The position numbers and the translations under genes are program-made. A stretch of 64,000 bases of DNA from Oscillospiraceae bacterium (lineage in GTDB: Bacteria; Bacillota_I; Bacilli_A; RF39; UBA660), in assembly GCA_963632935.1 (NCBI GenBank), contig CAVGWA010000005.1:610-64609 (forward strand), written 5' to 3'. How positions within the stretch are numbered: the stretch's first letter is position 1; every line of letters starts with the position of its first letter. The notes under the pieces were generated by a model. It saw only the letters and a list, made by a program, of their open reading frames with translations, made no database searches and was not told the DNA's origin. Shown here in pieces: positions 49,571 to 59,533 of this stretch.

Positions 49571-52500
49571 TTAAGATACTCTTAAAACAAATTGTGCCCA
49601 AGCTTCGTTACCTGCATTATCCCATATTTTACGTTGCTCATCAAAGTCAATCGGACGATAAAAATCAGATTCTATATGATATGCACAGGTGGTTGTCCAT
49701 ATACAATTTGAAAATGAACCATTCGTTGGTTTCCAATATATTAAATCCGAACCTGCTTTAACTCCTGATAAACTATCAGCTTTATATACGCTTGCATCAT
49801 AAGCAATCCAGCCATTAAACGTTGCATTGGCATAACAGCTTTGTCTTCCGTCGCAATTCGAATATGTTATGGTTAACTTGCTACCTCCGACTACATTATA
49901 GAAATAAAGTGTTGGTGAAGTCACATCCATCATTAATTTTGCTGATGAAGAATTTGAAACATTTCCAGCTTTATCTACTGCTCTATAGTAAATTGTTTGA
50001 TTCTTTTCTGGTGACCAGTTATTTGTGGCACCAGTATCAGTCCAGGTACCATTATTACCTAAACGATATTGATATTTAGAAATTCCAGAGCCTTCATCTT
50101 TTGAAGATACAGTTGTAATTATACTACTATTGTTCCACTGTGAATTAGATGCTCTAACACCTAATTTATTGATTTTATATTTCAATCCAGAAACATTACC
50201 AATGTCAAATCTAACATTGTTATAAGTTCCATTTGGAATTGTAATTGTAATTTTAGTTTGTCCTGCTTTTAATGTTGCTTTTTTGGAATTAGCTTCACTA
50301 TGACCATTTCCACTTGTTGCGTAGAATATTTGGATATTTATGTCTTTAGTTAGTGCTGATGCTAATTCAATGTAGGCACCATCTATATTTTTTATCCAGT
50401 TTCCAACTTCAATGTCTATTATTGGATCATTAGTTGAGGTTTCCCATGTTCCTGTTGTTCCAGCATCACTTTTGTATCCATTTAAGGATTTTGTTTTAGT
50501 TCCCCATATGTTATATATTGTACTTATTGTTGGTGTAGTTGGCGCTGTTTTATCTAAAGCATTTGCATATAAAGTTTTATTACCAGTTAATGTATATTTA
50601 CTACCGGCTGAGGTACCTGAAGTAGCTCCACTAGTTGTATTCCATCCAACTGATGTATATCCAGTTTTTGCTGTAATACTAGGTAAAGTTACTGTGCAAC
50701 TAGTTGCTTGAGCTGTTCCATTATAAGTTGCTGCACGTGTGCAGCTTCCAGTAGTTGCTCCAATTGCAGATACATTAGCTCCTTTACTATAAGTTATAGT
50801 ATGAGTTTTCGCATTTGCTTTAGTAATTGCATAATATGTTGCATTTGAACTTACTGCTTTAGCTGTATTTTGATTCCATCCACTTGTTGTAGCTGATGAA
50901 GAAGTATTATATCCAACTACTGTTGGTGTATTACTACTTCCTACTATTGTTGGACTAGTTACACTACATGTTGTTGCTTGCGAAGCATTATTATAAACTG
51001 CAGCTATTGTACAAGAACGTGTTACAGTAGTATCACTTACAGCTGTCCCACTACTATTTGTTTGCGTTGATGCATTATTTTTATTAAATGTAACTGTTAT
51101 TGTTTTTGCTTCTTTTCTATATATTGCATACAAAGTTACATTACTAGTTCCCATCGTTAAACTAGATAATTTACTAGTCGCATCCTTATTTGTATTCCAT
51201 CCAACAAATGTATAACCTGATTTGGTTGCTGTTGGAGTTAAATCTATAGCTGATGATTCATTAACTATCGCTGACGTTTTAGTAGAAGATGTTCCTCCAT
51301 TTGTTTTATAATTGTATGTTACTGTTCTTCTAATAGCAATATTATATGAAGTTGATATGGTATTTGTTCCATCAGTTACTTTCGCTATTAAAGTGGTATT
51401 GCTTGTAAATTCTATGGTTGGATTAGATGTTACTGTAACCCAGTTAGTTCCACCATCTTTACTATAAGAACATGTTAATCCATTAGAGCATCCTGATGGA
51501 TATGTAACAGTTACTTTTGATTTGCCTATTTCAGTCTCTTCTGAGAAAGTAGGTTTATTTATTGTTACTGTTGAGACTGTTTTACTTGCAGTATTTTGTT
51601 TAGAAGCTGTAGAAGTTACTCTTACTTTTATATTATAATTTGTTCCATGTGTTAATTTATCAAATGTATAAGTATTACCGGTTCCGGTAACCCATGTAGA
51701 ACCACCATCTTTAGAATATTCATATTTTGAAATACCTGATAAAGCATATGCATTAGCTACTACGGTTATGCTTTTGGAAGTTGATGTTGTTGATATACTT
51801 AATGTAGGTGCGGTTGCATCCCTTTTTACAGTTAAATTACATGTTCCAGTATTTCCAGCTTTATCTTTAACAAAACCATAGTATGTTTTTGATGATACAT
51901 CTTGATTTAATGTTTTTTCTGTTACATTATTGTATTCTACATTATTTGTCTCGGTTAATCCTTTAGATGCTACTCCACTTTCTTTGTCTGTTGCTGTTAG
52001 GGTTATCTTTACATCTGATGTATACCAATTATTATTTCCCAAAGTTCCTGATGAAGTTATTTTACAAGTTGGTTTTACTGTATCTGTTATCTTAAATGTT
52101 TTACCATCAGAGATATTACCCGCTTTATCTTTTGTCCATACATAATAAGTACCTAATGAATAACTATTAGTATATACCTTTTCTTCATTTGCCTTAGATG
52201 TAAATGATGTCCAACTATTACTTGTTTCACTCGGTTTTGTACTAGAAGTACTGATATATATACCATTTATTCCTGATATAGTATCTTTTACAGTAATATT
52301 AACTTTTTGTTTTTCATTAGACCAAGAGTCTAATTTAATATTTGTAATTAAAGGATTAACACTATCTACATTTATTACTTTATATTTATTTGTTATTGTG
52401 TTGTTTCCTTTTAGTTGTGCAGTTATTGTAGATATTTTAGTGAACGTTAGTTTTGTTTTTCCTCCAGAGTTTGCTCCATCTATGATCCAATTTCCTTCAT

Positions 52501-52996
52501 CTATTTTATATTTTGATTTATAATCACCTTCAACTTCTGGGTACAATATTGTAACGGTTCTTGATTTTACCCAACTGTTCCCATATGGATTTACAATAAA
52601 ATCAATGGTAGGCATTGCGGCTTCTTCTTTACATGAAGTGGTATCTTTTATTTCATATTCTGATGTACCTTGTGAATATATTGTTACTAATACAGTTTTA
52701 TCAGTTATATCTTTATTAGTTTCAACATCCTTTACAGGCGAAACTAAATATCCATTATCGACAAGTATTTGTATAGGAATGCAGTACTTACCACTTTTCC
52801 CTTTGGGATATAAATTACTATTTTCATCAATATATTGCTGTGTAGCTGTCCCTATAACACTATCACTTGCTATTTTTGATGGTGCTTTTGTTTTTGCAAT
52901 ATTATTTATAATTGTTGGCACAATTAAAATAAGTAACAGAGATATTATTACTATTACTCCTAATAATTCTGCTAATGTAAATCCTTTATTTTTCAT
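49571..52996 (-). CDS. Giant type IV pilin-like adhesin (about 1,141 aa): prepilin N-terminus, Ig-like modules and Listeria-Bacteroides-type repeats
   Basis: The start is set at ATG 52996 (GGGTGA SD): MKNKG|FTLAELLGVIVIISLLLILIVP. There are four D(K/N)AGN-terminated modules (KDKAGNIS, KDKAGNTG, VDKAGNVS, WDNAGNEA) and three GY(T)xVGWNT/GYNT repeat modules. Confidence 0.8.
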   Translation of the reverse strand: MKNKGFTLAELLGVIVIISLLLILIVPTIINNIAKTKAPSKIASDSVIGTATQQYIDENSNLYPKGKSGKYCIPIQILVDNGYLVSPVKDVETNKDITDKTVLVTIYSQGTSEYEIKDTTSCKEEAAMPTIDFIVNPYGNSWVKSRTVTILYPEVEGDYKSKYKIDEGNWIIDGANSGGKTKLTFTKISTITAQLKGNNTITNKYKVINVDSVNPLITNIKLDSWSNEKQKVNITVKDTISGINGIYISTSSTKPSETSNSWTSFTSKANEEKVYTNSYSLGTYYVWTKDKAGNISDGKTFKITDTVKPTCKITSSGTLGNNNWYTSDVKITLTATDKESGVASKGLTETNNVEYNNVTEKTLNQDVSSKTYYGFVKDKAGNTGTCNLTVKRDATAPTLSISTTSTSKSITVVANAYALSGISKYEYSKDGGSTWVTGTGNTYTFDKLTHGTNYNIKVRVTSTASKQNTASKTVSTVTINKPTFSEETEIGKSKVTVTYPSGCSNGLTCSYSKDGGTNWVTVTSNPTIEFTSNTTLIAKVTDGTNTISTSYNIAIRRTVTYNYKTNGGTSSTKTSAIVNESSAIDLTPTATKSGYTFVGWNTNKDATSKLSSLTMGTSNVTLYAIYRKEAKTITVTFNKNNASTQTNSSGTAVSDTTVTRSCTIAAVYNNASQATTCSVTSPTIVGSSNTPTVVGYNTSSSATTSGWNQNTAKAVSSNATYYAITKANAKTHTITYSKGANVSAIGATTGSCTRAATYNGTAQATSCTVTLPSITAKTGYTSVGWNTTSGATSGTSAGSKYTLTGNKTLYANALDKTAPTTPTISTIYNIWGTKTKSLNGYKSDAGTTGTWETSTNDPIIDIEVGNWIKNIDGAYIELASALTKDINIQIFYATSGNGHSEANSKKATLKAGQTKITITIPNGTYNNVRFDIGNVSGLKYKINKLGVRASNSQWNNSSIITTVSSKDEGSGISKYQYRLGNNGTWTDTGATNNWSPEKNQTIYYRAVDKAGNVSNSSSAKLMMDVTSPTLYFYNVVGGSKLTITYSNCDGRQSCYANATFNGWIAYDASVYKADSLSGVKAGSDLIYWKPTNGSFSNCIWTTTCAYHIESDFYRPIDFDEQRKIWDNAGNEAWAQFVLRVS

Positions 52997-53014
52997 ATCA
53001 TCACCCATAAATGG

Positions 53015-53035
53015 CCGTATAAATACCATTTATAC
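53015..53035. promoter_or_regulatory. Palindromic motif copy 1 (CCGTATAAATA-cca-TTTATAC) in the giant-pilin leader
   Basis: Read directly at 53015-53035, between the candidate -10 (53054-53059) and the start codon (52996). Confidence 0.3.
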
Positions 53036-53053
53036 AATACCTTTCATACTAAA

Positions 53054-53062
53054 ATTATATCA
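53054..53062 (-). promoter_or_regulatory. Extended -10 (TGaTATAAT) candidate promoter for the giant pilin gene
   Basis: The minus strand reads tttGATATAATttt. TATAAT is at 53054-53059 and TG at 53061-53062. The -35 is weak (AAGACT). Confidence 0.35.
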
Positions 53063-53122
53063 AATTTATATAAAAAAGTCTTAAAAAAGTAAGAATATTG
53101 TTTTTTGCAGCACTTTTTTTGC

Positions 53123-53143
53123 CGTATAAATAGTATTTATACG
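53123..53143. promoter_or_regulatory. Palindromic motif copy 2: perfect 10-1-10 palindrome CGTATAAATA-g-TATTTATACG
   Basis: Read directly at 53123-53143. It shares CCGTATAAATA with copy 1. It is flanked by T-runs on the plus strand and A-runs on the minus strand. Confidence 0.3.
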
Positions 53144-53234
53144 ACCTTTTTTTCACATATTATTAATAAAATTAAATTTTACATTTTTTACACTGGTTAT
53201 TTTTTTATAAAAAAATATGACTTACATTGCATAT

Positions 53235-53558
53235 TTATTTTAAATCATCAATATTTTTCTTTAATTGTTTAGCATCTTCACCAAAAATTATTTTTAATTG
53301 ATTATCAATTTCAACTATTCCTTGAGCACCCATTTTTTGAATTGCTTCTTTGTTTACAAGATCAATGTTGTGAAGATTAACAACAAATCTTGAATTATTT
53401 ACTTCATAATTAATAATATTTGCTGTTCCACCTAGGTATTCAATTAGTTTGTTTGCTTCAAGTTTAAAATCTTTGTTTTTAGCTTTCAAAATTGCAAATG
53501 CTATTACAAGTAAAATTACAATTATTACTATATATTGCCACATCATTTTATCACCCAT
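53235..53558 (-). CDS. Membrane-anchored PTS EIIB(Glc)-like domain protein lacking the phosphorylatable cysteine
   Basis: An N-terminal TM helix, then LIEYLGGTANIINYEVNNSRFVVNL...GAQGIVEIDNQLKIIFG, which parallels the EIIB pattern LGG..NI.....C.TRLR......G..G......Q.I.G. Cys-x-Thr-Arg-Leu-Arg is replaced by Asn-Asn-Ser-Arg-Phe-Val. Confidence 0.6.
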   Translation of the reverse strand: MGDKMMWQYIVIIVILLVIAFAILKAKNKDFKLEANKLIEYLGGTANIINYEVNNSRFVVNLHNIDLVNKEAIQKMGAQGIVEIDNQLKIIFGEDAKQLKKNIDDLK

Positions 53559-53562
53559 TTTA

Positions 53563-53722
53563 ATTATACTATATTTTTTATTATTTGGACAAAAGTTTTT
53601 ATTTAATGTTATAAATTTTATATTTTCTTTACTGTTTTTTTTGTGTGTTAGTGTATTATATTAGTGGTAATATAAATGAAAAATATTTCTAAATACCAAC
53701 TTGATAAAACTATATTAATTCC
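53563..53722. repeat. Direct repeat copy 1 (160 bp): duplicate of the rodA promoter, RBS and first 16 codons
   Basis: About 96% identical to 54042-54202, with roughly 6 differences including two indels in T-runs. Confidence 0.9.
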
Positions 53723-53738
53723 CAAGTTTAACAGTTGA
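53676..53738 (+). pseudogene. Truncated 5' fragment of the RodA/FtsW gene (20 codons, then element-derived sequence and a stop)
   Basis: MKNISKYQLDKTILIP-KFNS* compared with the intact gene MKNISKYKLDKTILIP-ILIF.... The SD is weakened (GGTAAT vs GGTGAT). Confidence 0.6.
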
Positions 53739-54041
53739 AAAAAATTTTAGCTCTCTAAGCCTTATAAATCCTAGGTTTAGCTAGTTTTTGAAATTGTCGT
53801 AGTATTCGTAACTATTGACTATTGATTTAACTTTATATATAATTTTTATATAAATTAAAAGAAAATAAAGAAAATTTAATATTACTTATAAAGTAAGAAA
53901 TTATAAGGTTTTATACAAATTTTCAAAAAAAATTTTTAAGTAAATTAAATAATAGATACTACGCAAAAAAATAAATCCTCTCATTCCCAGTATTTATAAT
54001 GGTTTGTGGGGATTTTTTATGGTACAACTGTCAAACTCAAG
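53723..54041. mobile_element. 319-bp non-coding insert with imperfect terminal inverted repeats (MITE-like or IS/integrative-element scar)
   Basis: The left end caAGTTTAACAGTTG (53723-53737) matches the reverse complement of the right end CAACTGTCAAACTcaag (54025-54041) at 12 of 13 positions. There is no ORF over 30 codons. It is bracketed by the 160-bp direct repeats. Confidence 0.35.
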
Positions 54042-54202
54042 ATTATACTATATTTTTTATTATTTGGACAAAAGTTTTATTTAATGTTATAAATTTTATA
54101 TTTTCTTTACTGGTTTTTTTTTGTGTGTTAGTGTATTATATTAGTGGTGATATAAATGAAAAATATTTCTAAATACAAGCTTGATAAAACTATATTAATT
54201 CC
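54042..54202. repeat. Direct repeat copy 2 (161 bp): functional promoter, RBS and 5' end of the RodA/FtsW gene
   Basis: See copy 1. This copy continues into the intact 376-codon ORF. Confidence 0.9.
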
Positions 54203-55286
54203 TATTTTGATTTTTGCTTTTATTAGTATTATTACTTTATATGGAGCTAAAAGTATTTTACCAAGTACTATGAGCCATTTGATGACAAATCAAATAATTT
54301 GGTATATTGCTGGCTTTATTTTAATTTATTTAATAATGACAATTGGAAATACTTACATTTATAGAATAAGCTGGTTTTTATATTTTGTAGGAATAATTTC
54401 ATTAATCGGACTTTTTTTCTTCGGAAAATCCATTAATAACGCAGTATGCTGGTACGAAATAAAAGGTATTGGTACAATTCAACCTAGTGAATTTATGAAA
54501 ATAATTTTAATTATTATAAATGCATCTATGATTTCTAAATTTAATGAAGAATTTCCAAATCCAAGTGTTAGAGAAGAATTTATGTTTTTAGTAAAAGTAT
54601 TTCTTGTTATTTTACCCCCAAGTATTTTAACATTTATGCAACCAGACACTGGTGTTGTTTTAATTTATTTATTAATTACATTTGTTATGCTTTTTATTTC
54701 TGGCATTAGATATAGGTGGTTTATTGCCGTTATTGCAACAGGAGTTATTACTGTTGGATTTGTTTTAGGAATTTATTTTTTAAATCAAGATTTATTTATT
54801 AAAATATTTGGAACTAGTTTCTTTTTAAGGGTTGATAGATTATTAGATTGGTCTAATCAAAGTGGCTATCAACTTGAAAACAGTTTAAGTTCCATTGGTT
54901 CAGCGGGTCTTTTTGGGCATGGTTTAACTAGTAACCCAATTTATTTTCCTGAAGCTCAAACTGATTTTATCTTTGCAGTTTATGCAAGTCATTTTGGATT
55001 TATTGGATCTATTATTTTACTTTCTTTGCTTGCTATTTTTGATATAAGATTAATCACATTAGCTTTAAAAACCAATAAATTAGTAAATAAATATGTCATT
55101 GCAGGTGTTGTTGGTATGCTTATATATCAACAAGTTCAAAACATTGGTATGACTTTTGGCTTACTTCCAATAACTGGTATTACACTACCTTTTATCAGTT
55201 ATGGTGGTTCAAGTTTATTAAGTTATATGCTTGCAATGGGAATGATATTTAATATTTCAAATGAAAACATGAGATATACAAATTAA
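54156..55286 (+). CDS. SEDS-family peptidoglycan glycosyltransferase (RodA/FtsW/SpoVE family)
   Basis: 376 aa with 10 TM helices. Motifs: IQPSEFMKI, PDTGVVLIY, EAQTDFIFA and LPITGITLPFISYGGSS. Confidence 0.92.
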   Translation: MKNISKYKLDKTILIPILIFAFISIITLYGAKSILPSTMSHLMTNQIIWYIAGFILIYLIMTIGNTYIYRISWFLYFVGIISLIGLFFFGKSINNAVCWYEIKGIGTIQPSEFMKIILIIINASMISKFNEEFPNPSVREEFMFLVKVFLVILPPSILTFMQPDTGVVLIYLLITFVMLFISGIRYRWFIAVIATGVITVGFVLGIYFLNQDLFIKIFGTSFFLRVDRLLDWSNQSGYQLENSLSSIGSAGLFGHGLTSNPIYFPEAQTDFIFAVYASHFGFIGSIILLSLLAIFDIRLITLALKTNKLVNKYVIAGVVGMLIYQQVQNIGMTFGLLPITGITLPFISYGGSSLLSYMLAMGMIFNISNENMRYTN

Positions 55287-55313
55287 AAACTGCTTATTCA
55301 GCAGTTTCTTTTT
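55287..55313. terminator. Bidirectional terminator between the SEDS gene (+) and rpmF (-)
   Basis: Stem aaactgct (55287-55294) / agcagttt (55300-55307) with a 5-nt loop and a T-run downstream on the plus strand. It overlaps the last codons of rpmF. Confidence 0.55.
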
Positions 55314-55482
55314 TAGCAACTATTTCTTTGCCTTTATAAGTTCCACATTCTTTACATACGCGATGTGGTTTTACTGGTGCACCACATTTAGGGCATACTG
55401 TAACAGTTTTAGCACTTATTTTATAATGGGTACGACGCATTCTTCCACTAGTTTTACTAACTTTTCTTGCTGGTACGGCCAT
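55294..55482 (-). CDS. rpmF: 50S ribosomal protein L32
   Basis: MAVPARKVSKTSGRMRRTH... with a CPKC...CKEC zinc ribbon. Confidence 0.93.
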   Translation of the reverse strand: MAVPARKVSKTSGRMRRTHYKISAKTVTVCPKCGAPVKPHRVCKECGTYKGKEIVAKKETAE

Positions 55483-55493
55483 GATAACACCTC

Positions 55494-55952
55494 CTATAAT
55501 AAATCTTTTAACTTAGCTAGGCTATGGTTGCCTTCTTTTTCGCTATCAGTTATAAGTTCCCAACCATTTCCCTTAGCTTTAATATTTCCTTCATTTTTGC
55601 TAACGACTTTAATGGGAATTTCCATTAATATATTTTCCCATATTATTGGTAAAATATCAATAGTTTTTTGATTTTTTTTAAAGTTTTCTAATATTTCTGA
55701 AAAGTTTTCTTCAACTTTTATCGAAAATGGATAATCAACTGGTTCTAAAGTTAAACTACTAGGAAGAACCATTTTACCTTTTATATCAAGGTCAATCATA
55801 TATTCATCATAAGAACATGTTATTTTACCTATTACATTTACCTTTTCCATTTTTAAAATTCCTGCTTTTTTTAAATCGTTTTCATCAAATTGAATTTTTT
55901 CATTTATATCAATACTGTTTTTTGTATTTAAAATATTTAAATCAATATTCAT
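55494..55952 (-). CDS. YceD/DUF177 family protein (23S rRNA accumulation protein-like)
   Basis: 152 aa and acidic. It sits in the conserved position immediately upstream of rpmF. Confidence 0.8.
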   Translation of the reverse strand: MNIDLNILNTKNSIDINEKIQFDENDLKKAGILKMEKVNVIGKITCSYDEYMIDLDIKGKMVLPSSLTLEPVDYPFSIKVEENFSEILENFKKNQKTIDILPIIWENILMEIPIKVVSKNEGNIKAKGNGWELITDSEKEGNHSLAKLKDLL

Positions 55953-55988
55953 TTTATCACCTGCTTAAATTATAACACTTTTTTTATT

Positions 55989-56648
55989 TTAAGCAAGTTT
56001 TGATATATATAAAAATGCATTAGTATCTGGGGCAGTTGTTAGTTCTGATGCCTTTCTTGTCTTAACAACTAGGTTTATAATATCTCCTTTTTTAGCTCTA
56101 GTAACTGCCATACTGTGGAAATCGGTATCATTATTTACTATAACATCTTTACTAACTTCCGAACCTTCAACAAATTCACCGTTTAACCATATTTCAGTGA
56201 ATAAAGCTGTTTGAACAGAAGAAGAAGCCGAAAAAAAGTATTCTATTTTATATATGCCATCTTCATTAATTGTAAAAGCATTTCCTGTATTAATTATTCC
56301 TATTACTTCACCAGTTCTATTTAATTCAACTTCTTTAAATGTATCATCTTCTAAGTTCATTATATTTCCAGCATCACTAAATTTATATCCAAATACACTA
56401 CGTGGCAAAGGTCCAGTTGGTCCTGTTGGGCCAATACTTCCTTTTGGAATTTTAAAATCTAAAATATGAGTTTTATCTATTAATGTATCTATAACTACAG
56501 CTTCTGTGTCTGGTTCTGTTGTTTCCGTTTTTCTTACTTTAATACTTTCAGATTCTCCTACTGGTCCAGTTGGACCAATATTACCATATTTTTCTTTACA
56601 TTTTTTTCCTTCTATTAAAATATCATCAATTTTTTTTGAATATTTCAT
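55989..56648 (-). CDS. BclA-like spore-surface protein: two mini collagen-like (GXY)4 runs plus a C-terminal beta-rich (C1q/TNF-like?) domain
   Basis: GNIGPTGPVGES (residues 22-33; DNA 56550-56585) and GSIGPTGPTGPL (residues 70-81; DNA 56406-56441). GPT triplets are the hallmark of Bacillus/Clostridium exosporium collagen-like proteins. The C-terminal roughly 135 aa is beta-strand-rich. Confidence 0.55.
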   Translation of the reverse strand: MKYSKKIDDILIEGKKCKEKYGNIGPTGPVGESESIKVRKTETTEPDTEAVVIDTLIDKTHILDFKIPKGSIGPTGPTGPLPRSVFGYKFSDAGNIMNLEDDTFKEVELNRTGEVIGIINTGNAFTINEDGIYKIEYFFSASSSVQTALFTEIWLNGEFVEGSEVSKDVIVNNDTDFHSMAVTRAKKGDIINLVVKTRKASELTTAPDTNAFLYISKLA

Positions 56649-56726
56649 ATATCATTCCCCTCGTATTATTATATGTTTTATGTATAGTTTTAATAATTTA
56701 ATTCAAAATAAATTTAGGTGAAATGT

Positions 56727-57197
56727 ATGATAACTTATTTATTAGTTTTTATTTTTAAAATTATAGAAGATGCATTAGCTACATTAAGAATAATTGTTGT
56801 TAGTAATGGTAAAAAAAAATTAGGAGCTTTTTTACAATTCATCGTTACTTTGATATGGATTATTTTAACAGGAACTGTTTTATTTAATTTACAAAAGGAT
56901 ATATTTAAAGCGATTGCCTTCGCTTTTGGTTCCTTTTTCGGTTCGTATTGTGGGAGTTTATTAGAAGAAAAAATAGCTTTAGGTACAAATATAATTATGG
57001 TAGAAGTTAATAATGATGATGCGAATGCTATTATTAAAAAATTAAAAGATTATAATATTTTAAAAATATTAAATAACAATAATACAATTTTAATAATTAC
57101 ATGTCCTAGAAAAGAGAATGATAAAATACTTTTTACAATTAAGTGCATTGAGGATAAAGCTTTTATATTAAGTGAAAAAGTTAAGGTTTTTTTATAA
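56727..57197 (+). CDS. UPF0316 family membrane protein (YebE-like; DUF2179 C-terminal domain)
   Basis: The start is set at ATG 56727 after a TAGGTGA SD. The N-terminus has TM helices (IFKIIEDALATLRIIVVSNGKKKLGAFLQFIVTLIWII), and a small soluble C-terminal domain follows. Confidence 0.7.
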   Translation: MITYLLVFIFKIIEDALATLRIIVVSNGKKKLGAFLQFIVTLIWIILTGTVLFNLQKDIFKAIAFAFGSFFGSYCGSLLEEKIALGTNIIMVEVNNDDANAIIKKLKDYNILKILNNNNTILIITCPRKENDKILFTIKCIEDKAFILSEKVKVFL

Positions 57198-57789
57198 AAT
57201 TATATATTAATTTACAGTTGTCTGTTATAAAATTATCATTTTTATTTTTTATATTTTCTAATTTATTTACCGTCCATTTAAAAGTTTCTTTATTTGATAA
57301 TTTATTGCATAAATAATTTATTGAATTAAAGTCAAATTCATTGTTTATATACTTTGTATTTATTTTTATCCCTATAATTAATCCACATTTTATTTTATAA
57401 TTTTCTTTTAAATGCTTTAGTAATTTATAATTAAATGAACAAATGTAAATATTTAAATTATATTTTGATATTGTTTTAATAATTACTTTTGATATTCTTT
57501 TAATATTATTATCACACTTTATTTCTATCATTATTATTTTATTTGTTTTTATTTTATTTAATACTTCGCTTAAAGTATTCAAACCTAATTGTCTTAATTT
57601 TTTTGAATTTTCTTTTTTAATTAATTTTCCTTTATAAAATGGATCGTGGTTTAAAATTAATTTATTATCTTTAGTTAATCTTACATCAATTTCTATTCCA
57701 TCAACATAATATTTACTTAAACTATTTAAAATAGCTTCTATACTATTTTCTCTATGAATATTATCATTAGCTCTATGGGCAATTATCAT
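57181..57789 (-). CDS. Glycerophosphodiester phosphodiesterase family protein (short)
   Basis: Motifs: MIIAHRANDN..ENSIEA and GIEIDVRLTKDNKLILNHD. Confidence 0.75.
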   Translation of the reverse strand: MIIAHRANDNIHRENSIEAILNSLSKYYVDGIEIDVRLTKDNKLILNHDPFYKGKLIKKENSKKLRQLGLNTLSEVLNKIKTNKIIMIEIKCDNNIKRISKVIIKTISKYNLNIYICSFNYKLLKHLKENYKIKCGLIIGIKINTKYINNEFDFNSINYLCNKLSNKETFKWTVNKLENIKNKNDNFITDNCKLIYNFIKKP

Positions 57790-57818
57790 ATTTTAAATAT
57801 ATTAAAAACAAAAGGATT

Positions 57819-58505
57819 TTATACCCTTTTGTTCATAAATGGTTTAACTTTTTTATAAACTAGTTCACTAATTTCAGCTATACTTTTAGGATTTTCATTT
57901 TCAAAACATTCTATAGTTTCAAATTTATATTTTTGTGCAAGTTCTAAATATGCTTGTTCCGCATTTTTTAAATGATTAATATCTTTTTCATGTTCGTCAG
58001 CTTTTTCTTTTCTGTTTGCTTTTAATTTTTCAGCTATTAATACAGGCATATGAAGAAATATAGTTAAATCTGGCTTTGGTAATTCCATTAAATCAAATTC
58101 TAATTTATCTAACCAATTATACATTTCATTTCTTTCAGTTTTATTTTTTATTTTTCCACCTTGATGAGCCATATTAGAATAAATATATCTATCTAAAATA
58201 ACATTATATCCTTGATTTAATAGAAAATTTATTTTATCAATGTTATATTTTCTATCAGCAGCATAATAAAGTGATGCAACTTTTGGATCAACGTTAGTAG
58301 GTCCTTCTTCAAAATAACATTTATCAAAATTTTCTTTTCCTAAATATGGTCCCCCTATAATTTTTCCTGTTGGTGAATTATAATTTGGAAATGAAAAGTT
58401 TTGTACTTGATATCCTTCTTCTCTTAATTTTTTTATTAATAAATTAGTTTGTGTTTCTTTGCCTGAACAATCAGTTCCTTCAATTGTGATTAATTTTCCT
58501 TTCAT
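57819..58505 (-). CDS. tmk: Thymidylate (dTMP) kinase
   Basis: P-loop ITIEGTDCSGKETQ, the DRY motif region ILDRYIYSNMAHQG, and a LID-like region. Confidence 0.88.
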   Translation of the reverse strand: MKGKLITIEGTDCSGKETQTNLLIKKLREEGYQVQNFSFPNYNSPTGKIIGGPYLGKENFDKCYFEEGPTNVDPKVASLYYAADRKYNIDKINFLLNQGYNVILDRYIYSNMAHQGGKIKNKTERNEMYNWLDKLEFDLMELPKPDLTIFLHMPVLIAEKLKANRKEKADEHEKDINHLKNAEQAYLELAQKYKFETIECFENENPKSIAEISELVYKKVKPFMNKRV

Positions 58506-58516
58506 ATATTTCTCCT

Positions 58517-59533
58517 TTACTGAGCTAATGGAAATCTAATCTTCCCATGATGTTTATAATTTAATACTTTAACATCTTTACATTCTTTGGAATTATCAAA
58601 TTTAAAGAAATCATTAACTTCTGGATTAAGCCATAACTCTGGTGCTTTTAAATCTTCAAGTTCTTCTCCGCGACAAATTTGCTCTTTTATACCATCAATT
58701 TGATTTACATATATATGTGCATCTTTAATACTCCAATCTAAAGAACCTGGAGTTAAATTTGTAACTTGTGCAAGCATATTTAGCAGTACTGCATATTGTG
58801 TGACATTAAATGGAAGACCTAGTGGCACATCACAACTACGTTGATGAACCCAAGCATTTAATTTACCATCCGCAACATCCCATTCACTAGACCAAACGCA
58901 TGATGGTAAAACTGCTGTATTTATATAATCATCTTGCCAAAGACTAATAACATTTCTTCTATCAGATTGATTTTCTTTTAAATTAATAATTAAATTTTGA
59001 ATAGATTGAAATTTTCCAACAATATATCCATATGCTGTTCCAATTGTATGGGCATATTTTTTTCCATAAAATTTTGCCTTTTTAATATTTCTACCATTTT
59101 TTAAGCTTTTAGCAGTCATTATATTATTTTTCATTTGTTTAAATTGCATATTATCATTGTGCTGATGCTTTGGAATACTATAAACATCTAAAACAGAAAC
59201 TTCTTTATTTTCATCATATGGTGCTTTTTCTGATTCATATATACGGTAAATTCCATCTTCATCTATTTCCCACTCATCCCATATATGAACGTTTCTTTCT
59301 TGAAGCCATCTAACATCATTACTTTGTGCTTGATAAATCCAAAGCATTTCTAAAACTGCTTGCCTTATAAATAATTGTTTTGTTGTTAGAATTGGAAATT
59401 CTTCATCTAAATTAAATTTAAAATGATAAGATGGAATTTTTATTGTGTTTATTCCCGTTCTATTTTCAACTTCATATCCATTTGTTAATATTTCTTTACA
59501 TAATTCTAAATATTCTTTATCCCATTTAGCCAT
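58517..59533 (-). CDS. thyA: Thymidylate synthase, ThyA type (B. subtilis ThyA-like) with a roughly 68-aa insertion
   Basis: Motifs: NRTGINT, FPILTTKQ, HIWDEW, SDRRNVISLWQ, active-site LPSCVW, HQRSCDVPLGLPFNVTQYAVLL and DAHIYVNQ. An extra segment spans residues 95-162 (DNA 59048-59251). Confidence 0.88.
   Translation of the reverse strand: MAKWDKEYLELCKEILTNGYEVENRTGINTIKIPSYHFKFNLDEEFPILTTKQLFIRQAVLEMLWIYQAQSNDVRWLQERNVHIWDEWEIDEDGIYRIYESEKAPYDENKEVSVLDVYSIPKHQHNDNMQFKQMKNNIMTAKSLKNGRNIKKAKFYGKKYAHTIGTAYGYIVGKFQSIQNLIINLKENQSDRRNVISLWQDDYINTAVLPSCVWSSEWDVADGKLNAWVHQRSCDVPLGLPFNVTQYAVLLNMLAQVTNLTPGSLDWSIKDAHIYVNQIDGIKEQICRGEELEDLKAPELWLNPEVNDFFKFDNSKECKDVKVLNYKHHGKIRFPLAQ

What the first reader, a model, noticed from the sequence alone, without database searches (positions are those of the whole stretch)
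53563..54202. 160-bp duplication of the rodA promoter and 5' end bracketing a 319-bp insert with inverted-repeat ends
Positions 53563-53722 and 54042-54202 are about 96% identical direct repeats. Each contains the upstream region, the RBS, the ATG and the first 16 codons of the SEDS (RodA/FtsW-family) gene.

Copy 1 runs into unrelated sequence and stops after 20 codons (MKNISKYQLDKTILIPKFNS*). Copy 2 continues as the intact gene.

The intervening 319 bp has no ORF of note. Its ends are inverted repeats: AGTTTAACAGTTG at 53725-53737 matches the reverse complement of 54025-54037 at 12 of 13 positions.

A 160-bp flanking duplication is far too long for a transposase target-site duplication. It looks more like attL/attR from an element that integrated into the 5' end of an essential gene while carrying a replacement 5' end, and was then mostly deleted. 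Alternatively it is a MITE insertion rescued by a local duplication.
Basis: seen in the sequence. Interest (0 to 1): 0.65.

Follow-up and report, generated by a model that had tools for sequence, protein, structure and literature searches.

The report
Decayed IS1634-type element with 160-bp footprint
The 319-bp insert is the gutted remnant of an IS1634-family jumping gene, and the 160-bp repeat on either side is the unusually long target duplication this family makes, which here rebuilt the promoter and start of rodA so the gene stayed whole; it is a clear but ordinary example of a known oddity.

Summary
Positions 53563-53722 and 54042-54202 are direct repeats (160 and 161 bp, 156 of 162 aligned columns identical), found nowhere else in the genome, and they bracket a 319-bp insert with inverted-repeat ends.

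The interpretation needs correcting. The insert carries both termini, the 5' leader and the 3' tail of an IS1634-family insertion sequence. The roughly 1.7-kb transposase gene is gone. A full 2.0-kb relative with a 602-aa IS1634-family transposase lies on another contig of the same genome.

Among 13 full-length relatives with both flanks readable, 11 have long direct repeats (46-625 bp) that directly abut the element ends. So 160 bp is a normal target-site duplication for this lineage. No att sites and no separate rescue duplication are needed.

At least five species of the genus show the uninterrupted single-copy site. One IS end sits directly after the -10 box (TATAAT) of the divergent neighbour gene. 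The other end sits 160 bp away, in codon 16 of rodA.

The duplication therefore leaves one full intergenic region on each side, so both genes keep their control regions. Copy 1 has since drifted, which points to an old insertion.

The parts
53235..53558 (-). Divergent upstream neighbour, a 107-aa membrane-anchored protein. It is adjacent to rodA in most species of the genus.
   Evidence: ORF list. It is syntenic with rodA in G012, G016, G001, G019, G004 and others. It has no Pfam hit.
53563..53722 (.). Target-site duplication, copy 1 (160 bp). It holds the full intergenic region plus 47 nt of rodA, and it is the drifting copy.
   Evidence: The derived changes lie in this copy: RBS GGTGAT to GGTAAT at 53669, and codon 8 AAG to CAA at 53697/53699, judged against relatives.
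53563..53592 (-). Promoter-like site of the 107-aa gene: TTGTCC, an 18-nt spacer, then TATAAT. The -10 hexamer (53568-53563) forms the first 6 nt of the duplication.
   Evidence: Promoter scan, 10 of 12 matches. ATTATACTATA is conserved at this spot in all aligned relatives. The gene's start codon lies 16 nt downstream, behind the RBS GGGTGA.
53676..53738 (+). Dead 5' stub of rodA. It has 20 codons and runs into the element's left end, where it stops.
   Evidence: Sequence and translation.
53723..54041 (+). Internally deleted, non-autonomous IS1634-family element of 319 bp. It lies in transposase-forward orientation and has no transposase gene.
   Evidence: The left ~100-170 nt align with the 5' leaders of full-length elements (z 6.7-6.8 with the G009 and G065 copies). 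The right ~155 nt align with the 3' end of the full IS on contig C4 (72-73% identity, z 14). No ORF of 40 aa or more lies wholly inside it.
53723..53737 (+). Left terminal inverted repeat, CAAGTTTAACAGTTG.
53815..53843 (+). Promoter-like site inside the element: TTGACT, a 17-nt spacer, then TATAAT. It is probably the leftover transposase promoter and points toward rodA.
   Evidence: Best promoter match in the region, 11 of 12. Function was not tested.
53975..54013 (+). Decayed hairpin that corresponds to the strong subterminal hairpin of full-length elements.
   Evidence: The fold is weak: -12.5 kcal/mol, z -1.2. The counterpart in the C4 IS is a 23-nt inverted repeat, 91% complementary (pair I6).
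54025..54041 (+). Right terminal inverted repeat, CAACTGTCAAACTCAAG.
54042..54202 (.). Target-site duplication, copy 2 (161 bp). It holds the full native intergenic region and the 5' end of the working rodA. It also holds a second copy of the neighbour's promoter (54071-54042, minus strand), which now points into the element.
   Evidence: It keeps the ancestral RBS and Lys8.
54156..55286 (+). Intact rodA (SEDS family), 376 aa, the same length as in relatives.
   Evidence: Pfam PF01098, 238.5 bits, residues 15-371. Relatives' RodA proteins are 376 aa.

Best explanation
An IS1634-family insertion sequence transposed into the short divergent region between the 107-aa gene and rodA.

One end, the one downstream of the transposase gene, was joined directly after the -10 hexamer TATAAT of the 107-aa gene's promoter. 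The other end was joined 160 bp away on the other strand, in codon 16 of rodA. Repair of the two long single-stranded gaps copied the 160 bp between the joints. This step is inferred, and it is the standard way target duplications form.

The result is [107-aa gene]-[160 bp]-[IS]-[160 bp]-[rest of rodA]. The 160 bp covers the entire intergenic region plus the rodA start. The left copy therefore still serves the 107-aa gene, and the right copy still supplies rodA with its native upstream region, RBS and first codons. An insertion into the 5' end of a probably essential gene was thus harmless.

Later the element lost about 1.7 kb, including the whole transposase gene. This loss most likely happened in place. 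What remains is 319 bp with both termini. The unused copy 1 has picked up mutations in the rodA RBS and in codon 8.
For: 1. The genome has a full 2.0-kb IS on contig C4 that encodes a 602-aa protein. This protein matches NCBIfam NF033559 (IS1634 family transposase) at 297.9 bits against a cutoff of 100. The right 148 nt of the insert are 72-73% identical to that IS's 3' end.

2. The same terminal motif, (C)YYRAGTTTGACAGTTGT, ends the C4 IS and other IS1634-family pieces in the genome.

3. Full-length relatives in the same genus and in other Bacilli MAGs have repeats that directly abut both element ends: 119, 67, 121, 241, 120, 625, 80, 146, 70, 46 and 93 bp. That is 11 of the 13 copies with both flanks readable.

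4. The literature reports that IS1634 and IS1549 make variable duplications of 8-514 bp (PMC2266710; the title of Vilei 1999 appears).

5. Relatives carry the site once and uninterrupted. The boundary sequences ATTATACTATA and TTAATTCC are native in them.

6. The tnp-downstream end abuts a -10-like hexamer in every copy examined: seven exact TATAAT, the rest one mismatch (TAAAAT, TATACT) or two (TATATT). The window shows the same arrangement.

7. Where relatives allow the changes to be polarised, the derived changes lie in copy 1.
Against: - The structure therefore rests on one short-read-type assembly.
- No genome of the same species with an empty site was found. The empty sites come from other species at 71-84% identity.
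- The exact parent IS of this remnant is not in the assembly; the best relative is only about 72% identical.
- The genome's own full-length C4 copy and one copy in G042 lack flanking repeats.
- The gap-repair step and the way the two joints are spaced have never been shown biochemically for this family.
Confidence: 0.92

Rival explanations
1. The repeats are attL and attR of a site-specific integrative element (phage, ICE or IME). The element integrated into the 5' end of rodA, carried a replacement 5' end, and was later mostly deleted.
For: Direct repeats bracket foreign DNA at the 5' end of a gene, and the gene stays intact.
Against: Neither an integrase nor any remnant of one is present. 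The insert's ends are inverted repeats shared with DDE-transposase elements. The repeats abut those ends exactly, as they do in 11 of 13 full-length relatives. Both repeat copies are host sequence, including the neighbour's promoter. An element-borne replacement would not normally be 160 bp of near-identical host intergenic DNA.
Confidence: 0.02
2. The element inserted with an ordinary short duplication. The 160-bp repeat arose separately, either as a tandem duplication before the insertion or as a compensating duplication after it.
For: Most IS1634-family members are listed with 5-6-bp duplications (PMC2266710; ISGka5 makes 6 bp). Two relatives here lack long repeats.
Against: It needs two independent events whose boundaries coincide to the base with both element ends. 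No short duplication lies inside the long one. The same geometry recurs at 11 other, unrelated loci.
Confidence: 0.04
3. The structure is an assembly artefact. A metagenome bin wrongly joined or doubled the rodA upstream region.
For: The genome is a 43-contig draft. Other IS copies sit at contig ends. Reads could not be checked.
Against: The two copies differ at 6 positions and share no exact run longer than 38 nt, so they are not a collapsed or doubled identical repeat. The structure also has exact biological hallmarks that misassembly would not create: family-typical termini, abutting repeats, the -10 box junction, and mutations confined to the unused copy.
Confidence: 0.02

Closest known systems
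IS1634 of Mycoplasma mycoides subsp. mycoides SC (Vilei, Nicolet & Frey 1999) and IS1549 of Mycobacterium smegmatis, both in the IS1634 family
   Same: The related full-length elements here encode an IS1634-family DDE transposase. All have short terminal inverted repeats and long, variable target duplications. The range here is 46-625 bp, against 8-514 bp reported.
   Different: The window's element has lost its transposase and is only 319 bp. The host is an uncultured low-GC (26%) gut Bacilli lineage. The lineage shows a consistent junction of one end with a promoter -10 hexamer. I could not check whether this was reported for IS1634 or IS1549, because the 1999 paper is not held.
Bacterial MITEs (miniature inverted-repeat transposable elements)
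   Same: It is small, has terminal inverted repeats and a flanking target duplication, has no transposase, and derives from an IS by internal deletion.
   Different: It is a single copy. No second copy was found in the genome or by an exact 28-nt scan of metagenome contigs, which may leave out near relatives. There is therefore no evidence that it spread as a MITE family. An in-place deletion of a full-length insertion is more likely.
Typical IS1634-family members such as ISGka5 of Geobacillus kaustophilus
   Same: Same transposase family.
   Different: Those make 5-6-bp duplications. This lineage makes tens to hundreds of bp.

Membership tests
IS1634 family insertion sequence | Encodes an IS1634-type DDE transposase | tested here: not met
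   The 319-bp element has no transposase ORF. Only a trace of the 3' coding end aligns. Its full-length relative on contig C4 does meet the feature: NF033559 at 297.9 bits against a cutoff of 100, and Pfam DDE_Tnp_1. I therefore file the element as a deletion derivative, not as an autonomous member.
IS1634 family insertion sequence | Terminal inverted repeats homologous to those of elements that carry the family transposase | tested here: met
   The core AGTTTRACAGTTG at both ends matches the termini of the C4, G061, G009, G065 and G050 elements. The subterminal regions also align (z 6.7-14).
IS1634 family insertion sequence | Flanking target-site duplication that abuts both ends. For the IS1634/IS1549 type it is long and variable. 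| tested here: met
   Repeats of 160 and 161 bp directly abut 53723 and 54041. In addition, 11 of 13 full-length relatives have abutting repeats of 46-625 bp.
IS1634 family insertion sequence | The target is single-copy and uninterrupted in genomes that lack the element | tested here: met
   Empty sites were found in G012, G016, G001, G019 and G004. These are other species of the genus. No same-species empty site was found.
MITE | Short non-autonomous element with terminal inverted repeats and a target duplication | tested here: met
   319 bp, with inverted-repeat ends, a flanking duplication and no transposase.
MITE | Multiple dispersed copies mobilised in trans | tested here: not met
   It is the only copy in the genome. 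There were no exact hits in metagenome contigs.
Site-specific integrative element (att-flanked) | A tyrosine or serine recombinase, and att core repeats contributed by the element | tested here: not met
   The insert has no recombinase gene or remnant. Both repeats are host DNA.

The most novel reading that the evidence does not exclude
This IS1634 lineage may be directed to active promoters. One end would be joined immediately after the -10 hexamer, whether it recognises the sequence or the melted open complex. The other end would be joined a variable 46-625 bp upstream. The long duplication would then preserve the promoter and any divergent gene start, which would make insertions next to essential genes tolerable. 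The rodA remnant would be a long-surviving example of that self-limiting damage. Supporting evidence: in 9 of 12 elements a long ORF starts 5-36 nt after the hexamer, against 14.4% of the 4,308 TATAAT hexamers in this genome that had 700 nt of downstream sequence to test. The thresholds were chosen after seeing the data.
Probability: 0.5. Interest if true: 0.6.

Novelty: new member of a known kind. Interest (0 to 1): 0.3.

Why it matters
This finding explains away an apparently exotic structure as the footprint of a known transposon family. The family's long duplications are documented, but no mechanism for them has been proposed.

The locus is a tidy natural illustration of one consequence. 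A long duplication can make an insertion into the 5' end of a cell-wall gene harmless, because it rebuilds the gene's control region and start. The insertion can then persist long enough for the element itself to decay.

Together with the related copies gathered here, it adds data on the family's target choice: one end at a -10 box, the other at a variable distance. That is useful for anyone trying to work out how these transposases space their two strand transfers. It is also a caution for annotation pipelines, which could call the stub a duplicated or split gene.

Tried and rejected
- An Rfam scan of 52500-55500 found nothing credible in the insert, so it is not a known RNA gene.
- I looked for other copies of the insert in the genome. 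The only hit was the 72%-identical end of the C4 IS; the rest were AT-rich noise.
- Two exact-pattern scans of metagenome contigs found nothing. One used the element's left end, the other the rodA junction. Records close to this genome may be left out of that collection.
- An exact-protein look-up of RodA found nothing. A look-up of L32 found close relatives, but these have a different gene (dus) upstream of rodA, so they give no same-species empty site.
- The subterminal hairpin is not a convincing terminator. The fold has z -1.2 and the terminator scan found none, so I do not claim one.
- The 1999 IS1634 paper is not held. The claim about published duplication lengths therefore rests on the 2008 review.
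- I first suspected that the conserved TATAATCYY outside the core repeat was part of the element's terminus. The repeat analysis showed that TATAAT belongs to the duplicated target, not to the element.

Full report
**What is there.** The window is C5:610-64609 of a 1.13-Mb, 43-contig, 26%-GC draft genome. Related records label such genomes as uncultured gut Bacilli MAGs.

Positions 53563-53722 (160 bp) and 54042-54202 (161 bp) are direct repeats. They are identical at 156 of 162 aligned columns, with three substitutions and two indel events. The longest exact shared run is 38 nt. The sequence occurs only at these two places in the genome.

Each copy contains the whole region between the divergent 107-aa gene (53235-53558, minus strand) and rodA, plus the rodA RBS, ATG and 47 coding bases. 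Copy 1 runs into the insert and stops after 20 codons. Copy 2 continues as an intact 376-aa SEDS protein. The insert is 53723-54041 (319 bp) and has inverted ends.

**What the insert is.** Its right 148 nt are 72-73% identical to one end of a 2.0-kb element on contig C4 of the same genome. That element encodes a 602-aa protein. The protein matches the NCBIfam equivalog for IS1634 family transposases (NF033559, 297.9 bits, cutoff 100) and Pfam DDE_Tnp_1.

The C4 element ends in perfect 16-18-bp inverted repeats, (C)YTAAGTTTGACAGTTGT. The insert's ends are versions of the same motif: CAAGTTTAACAGTTG on the left and CTTGAGTTTGACAGTTG (as reverse complement) on the right.

- The left ~100-170 nt of the insert align with the 5' leaders of related full-length elements. 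The z-score is 6.7-6.8 against shuffles for the G009 and G065 copies.
- The right ~155 nt align with the 3' end of the C4 element (z 14). This stretch includes the last transposase codons, the subterminal hairpin and the terminal repeat.

So the insert is an IS1634-family element that has kept both ends and lost about 1.7 kb, including the whole transposase gene. The genome holds other pieces of the family:
- a copy split over a contig start (C22) and possibly a contig end (C5:65958-66012);
- a second internally deleted copy (C27);
- more distant copies (C41, C43, C14).

A close relative's genome (G077) has a 390-bp deletion derivative of the C22-type element. Such decay therefore recurs.

**Is 160 bp a target duplication?** I collected full-length relatives from complete or long-contig genomes of the same genus (G009 with two copies, G065 with four, G061, G050, G042) and from other Bacilli MAGs (L068, L069, L073).

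For each copy I compared the DNA just outside the two ends. Eleven of the 13 full-length copies with both flanks readable carry direct repeats that abut both ends. The lengths are 119, 67, 121, 241, 120, 625, 80, 146, 70, 46 and 93 bp. All are 100% identical except the 625-bp pair, which is 99.7% identical. The genome's own C4 copy and the G042 copy have none.

[quoted passage not shown] Most of the family makes 5-6 bp (PMC2266710; ISGka5 makes 6 bp).

**The empty site.** In many species of the genus the 107-aa gene and rodA are direct neighbours, and the duplicated stretch is present once. An alignment of five of them (G012, G016, G001, G019, G004) shows that both boundary sequences are native host DNA. 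These are ATTATACTATA next to the 107-aa gene and TTAATTCC in rodA codons 14-16.

Where these relatives allow the differences between the two copies to be polarised, copy 2 keeps the ancestral state and copy 1 is derived:
- the RBS GGTGAT became GGTAAT at 53669;
- Lys codon 8 (AAG) became CAA at 53697/53699.

That fits a working copy 2 under selection and a free-drifting copy 1. The full-length relatives have perfect repeats, so this insertion is comparatively old. A gutted element with a decayed hairpin fits the same picture.

**Where the ends landed.** In every copy examined, the end downstream of the transposase gene abuts a -10-like hexamer on the flank. Seven are exact TATAAT; the rest differ at one position (TAAAAT, TATACT) or two (TATATT). 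The repeat analysis shows that this hexamer belongs to the duplicated target, not to the element.

In the window it is the -10 of a TTGTCC-18-TATAAT site (53592 to 53563, minus strand). It lies 16 nt upstream of the 107-aa gene's start, behind a GGGTGA RBS.

In 9 of 12 elements a long ORF (89 or more codons) starts 5-36 nt after the hexamer in native context. The same holds for 14.4% of the 4,308 TATAAT hexamers in this genome that had 700 nt of downstream sequence to test (binomial P about 4e-6). The thresholds were chosen after seeing the data, and the control is one genome. The other end shows no clear motif.

Earlier notes of this scan describe the same -10 adjacency for other IS1634-family elements. 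I saw the hexamer before reading them. Their promoter idea prompted the ORF test.

**How it most likely happened.**
- Shown: the element's identity, the abutting duplication, the single-copy ancestral site, and the junction at the -10 box.
- Inferred: one end was transferred just after the -10 hexamer of the 107-aa gene's promoter, and the other end 160 bp away in rodA codon 16. Gap repair then copied the intervening 160 bp. The element later lost its interior.

The duplicated piece spans the entire intergenic region. The left copy therefore still serves the 107-aa gene, and the right copy gives rodA its full native upstream region, RBS and start. The second copy of the neighbour's promoter (54071-54042) now points into the element. 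The element's own leftover promoter-like site (53815-53843, 11 of 12 matches) points toward rodA. Neither was tested.

Whether the 319-bp form arose in place or moved as a MITE is open. I favour in-place decay at about 2:1, for three reasons: it is a single copy, the diverged repeats point to age, and comparable solo remnants exist elsewhere (C27; L078 in G077).

**Rivals.**
- *Att-flanked integrative element.* No recombinase is present. The ends are those of a DDE element, and both repeats are host DNA.
- *Separate duplication plus an ordinary insertion.* This needs two events whose boundaries coincide to the base. It also ignores the 11 parallel cases.
- *Assembly artefact.* The copies differ at six positions with no shared run over 38 nt, and the structure has family-specific hallmarks. 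Two metagenome scans and one exact-protein look-up found nothing from the same species.

**Verdict.** This is a new example of a known kind: an internally deleted IS1634-family element with the family's long target-site duplication, in an uncultured gut Bacilli genome. It is neat because the duplication rescued rodA and the divergent promoter. It also adds to the evidence on -10-box targeting. It is not a new type of system. Interest is about 0.3, and confidence in the explanation is about 0.92.

Noticed in passing
Window 53563-53568 and 54042-54047; loci L037-L046, L050, L053, L041, L068, L069, L073, L079-L082: In this IS1634 lineage the end downstream of the transposase gene always abuts a -10-like hexamer (mostly TATAAT) that belongs to the target. 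In 9 of 12 cases a gene starts 5-36 nt after it, against 14% of the 4,308 testable TATAAT hexamers in the genome. The other end lands 46-625 bp away with no clear motif.
   Followed up: partly
L029 (G009:C1:1085200-1089600), L030 (G003), L031 (G006): In three other species of the genus, the same intergenic site between the 107-aa gene and rodA holds a different insertion of 1.4-1.9 kb. It carries an XRE-type HTH gene (Pfam HTH_3) and a 316-335-aa PD-(D/E)XK 'transposase' (PF12784, Rpn/YhgA-like). In G023 and G018 the assembly breaks between the two genes. The spot looks like a recurrent landing site.
   Followed up: partly
L058-L061 (G077 and Logan contigs) against window 54079-58518; own genome C12:10595-13336: Close relatives have dus-DHH upstream of rodA instead of the 107-aa gene. 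Their rodA region is 91-95% identical to the window, and their dus region is 98.7% identical to own contig C12. In the own genome, dus follows miaB on C12. The homology break is near window 54079, 37 nt inside duplication copy 2. This is a strain-level rearrangement next to the insertion site, of unknown cause.
   Followed up: partly
Own genome C27:10656 to about 11180 (outside the window): This is a second internally deleted IS1634-family remnant. It joins transposase residues 1-73 to residues 543-601 of the C4-type element. It has a left terminal repeat but no recognisable right one.
   Followed up: partly
Own genome C5:65958-66012 (about 1.35 kb past the window end) and C22:1-1265: Contig C5 ends inside an IS1634-family terminus, and contig C22 starts inside a transposase gene of the same type (50% identical to the C4 protein). 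IS copies are breaking this assembly. The two may be one copy.
   Followed up: no
L062 (G061), L067, L071, L074: Transposases 68-98% identical to the C4 protein sit on contigs labelled Sphaerochaetaceae, Methanobrevibacter, Bacteroidaceae and Melainabacteria. Most are short contigs of IS length only. Mis-binning of a repeated element is more likely than transfer across phyla, although the 98% copy in G061 suggests recent spread between species of the genus.
   Followed up: no
Own genome C4:12205-14250: The only intact IS1634-family copy in this genome has no flanking direct repeat. Its tnp-downstream end still abuts TTATAAT. A later rearrangement or a deletion of one flank is possible.
   Followed up: partly
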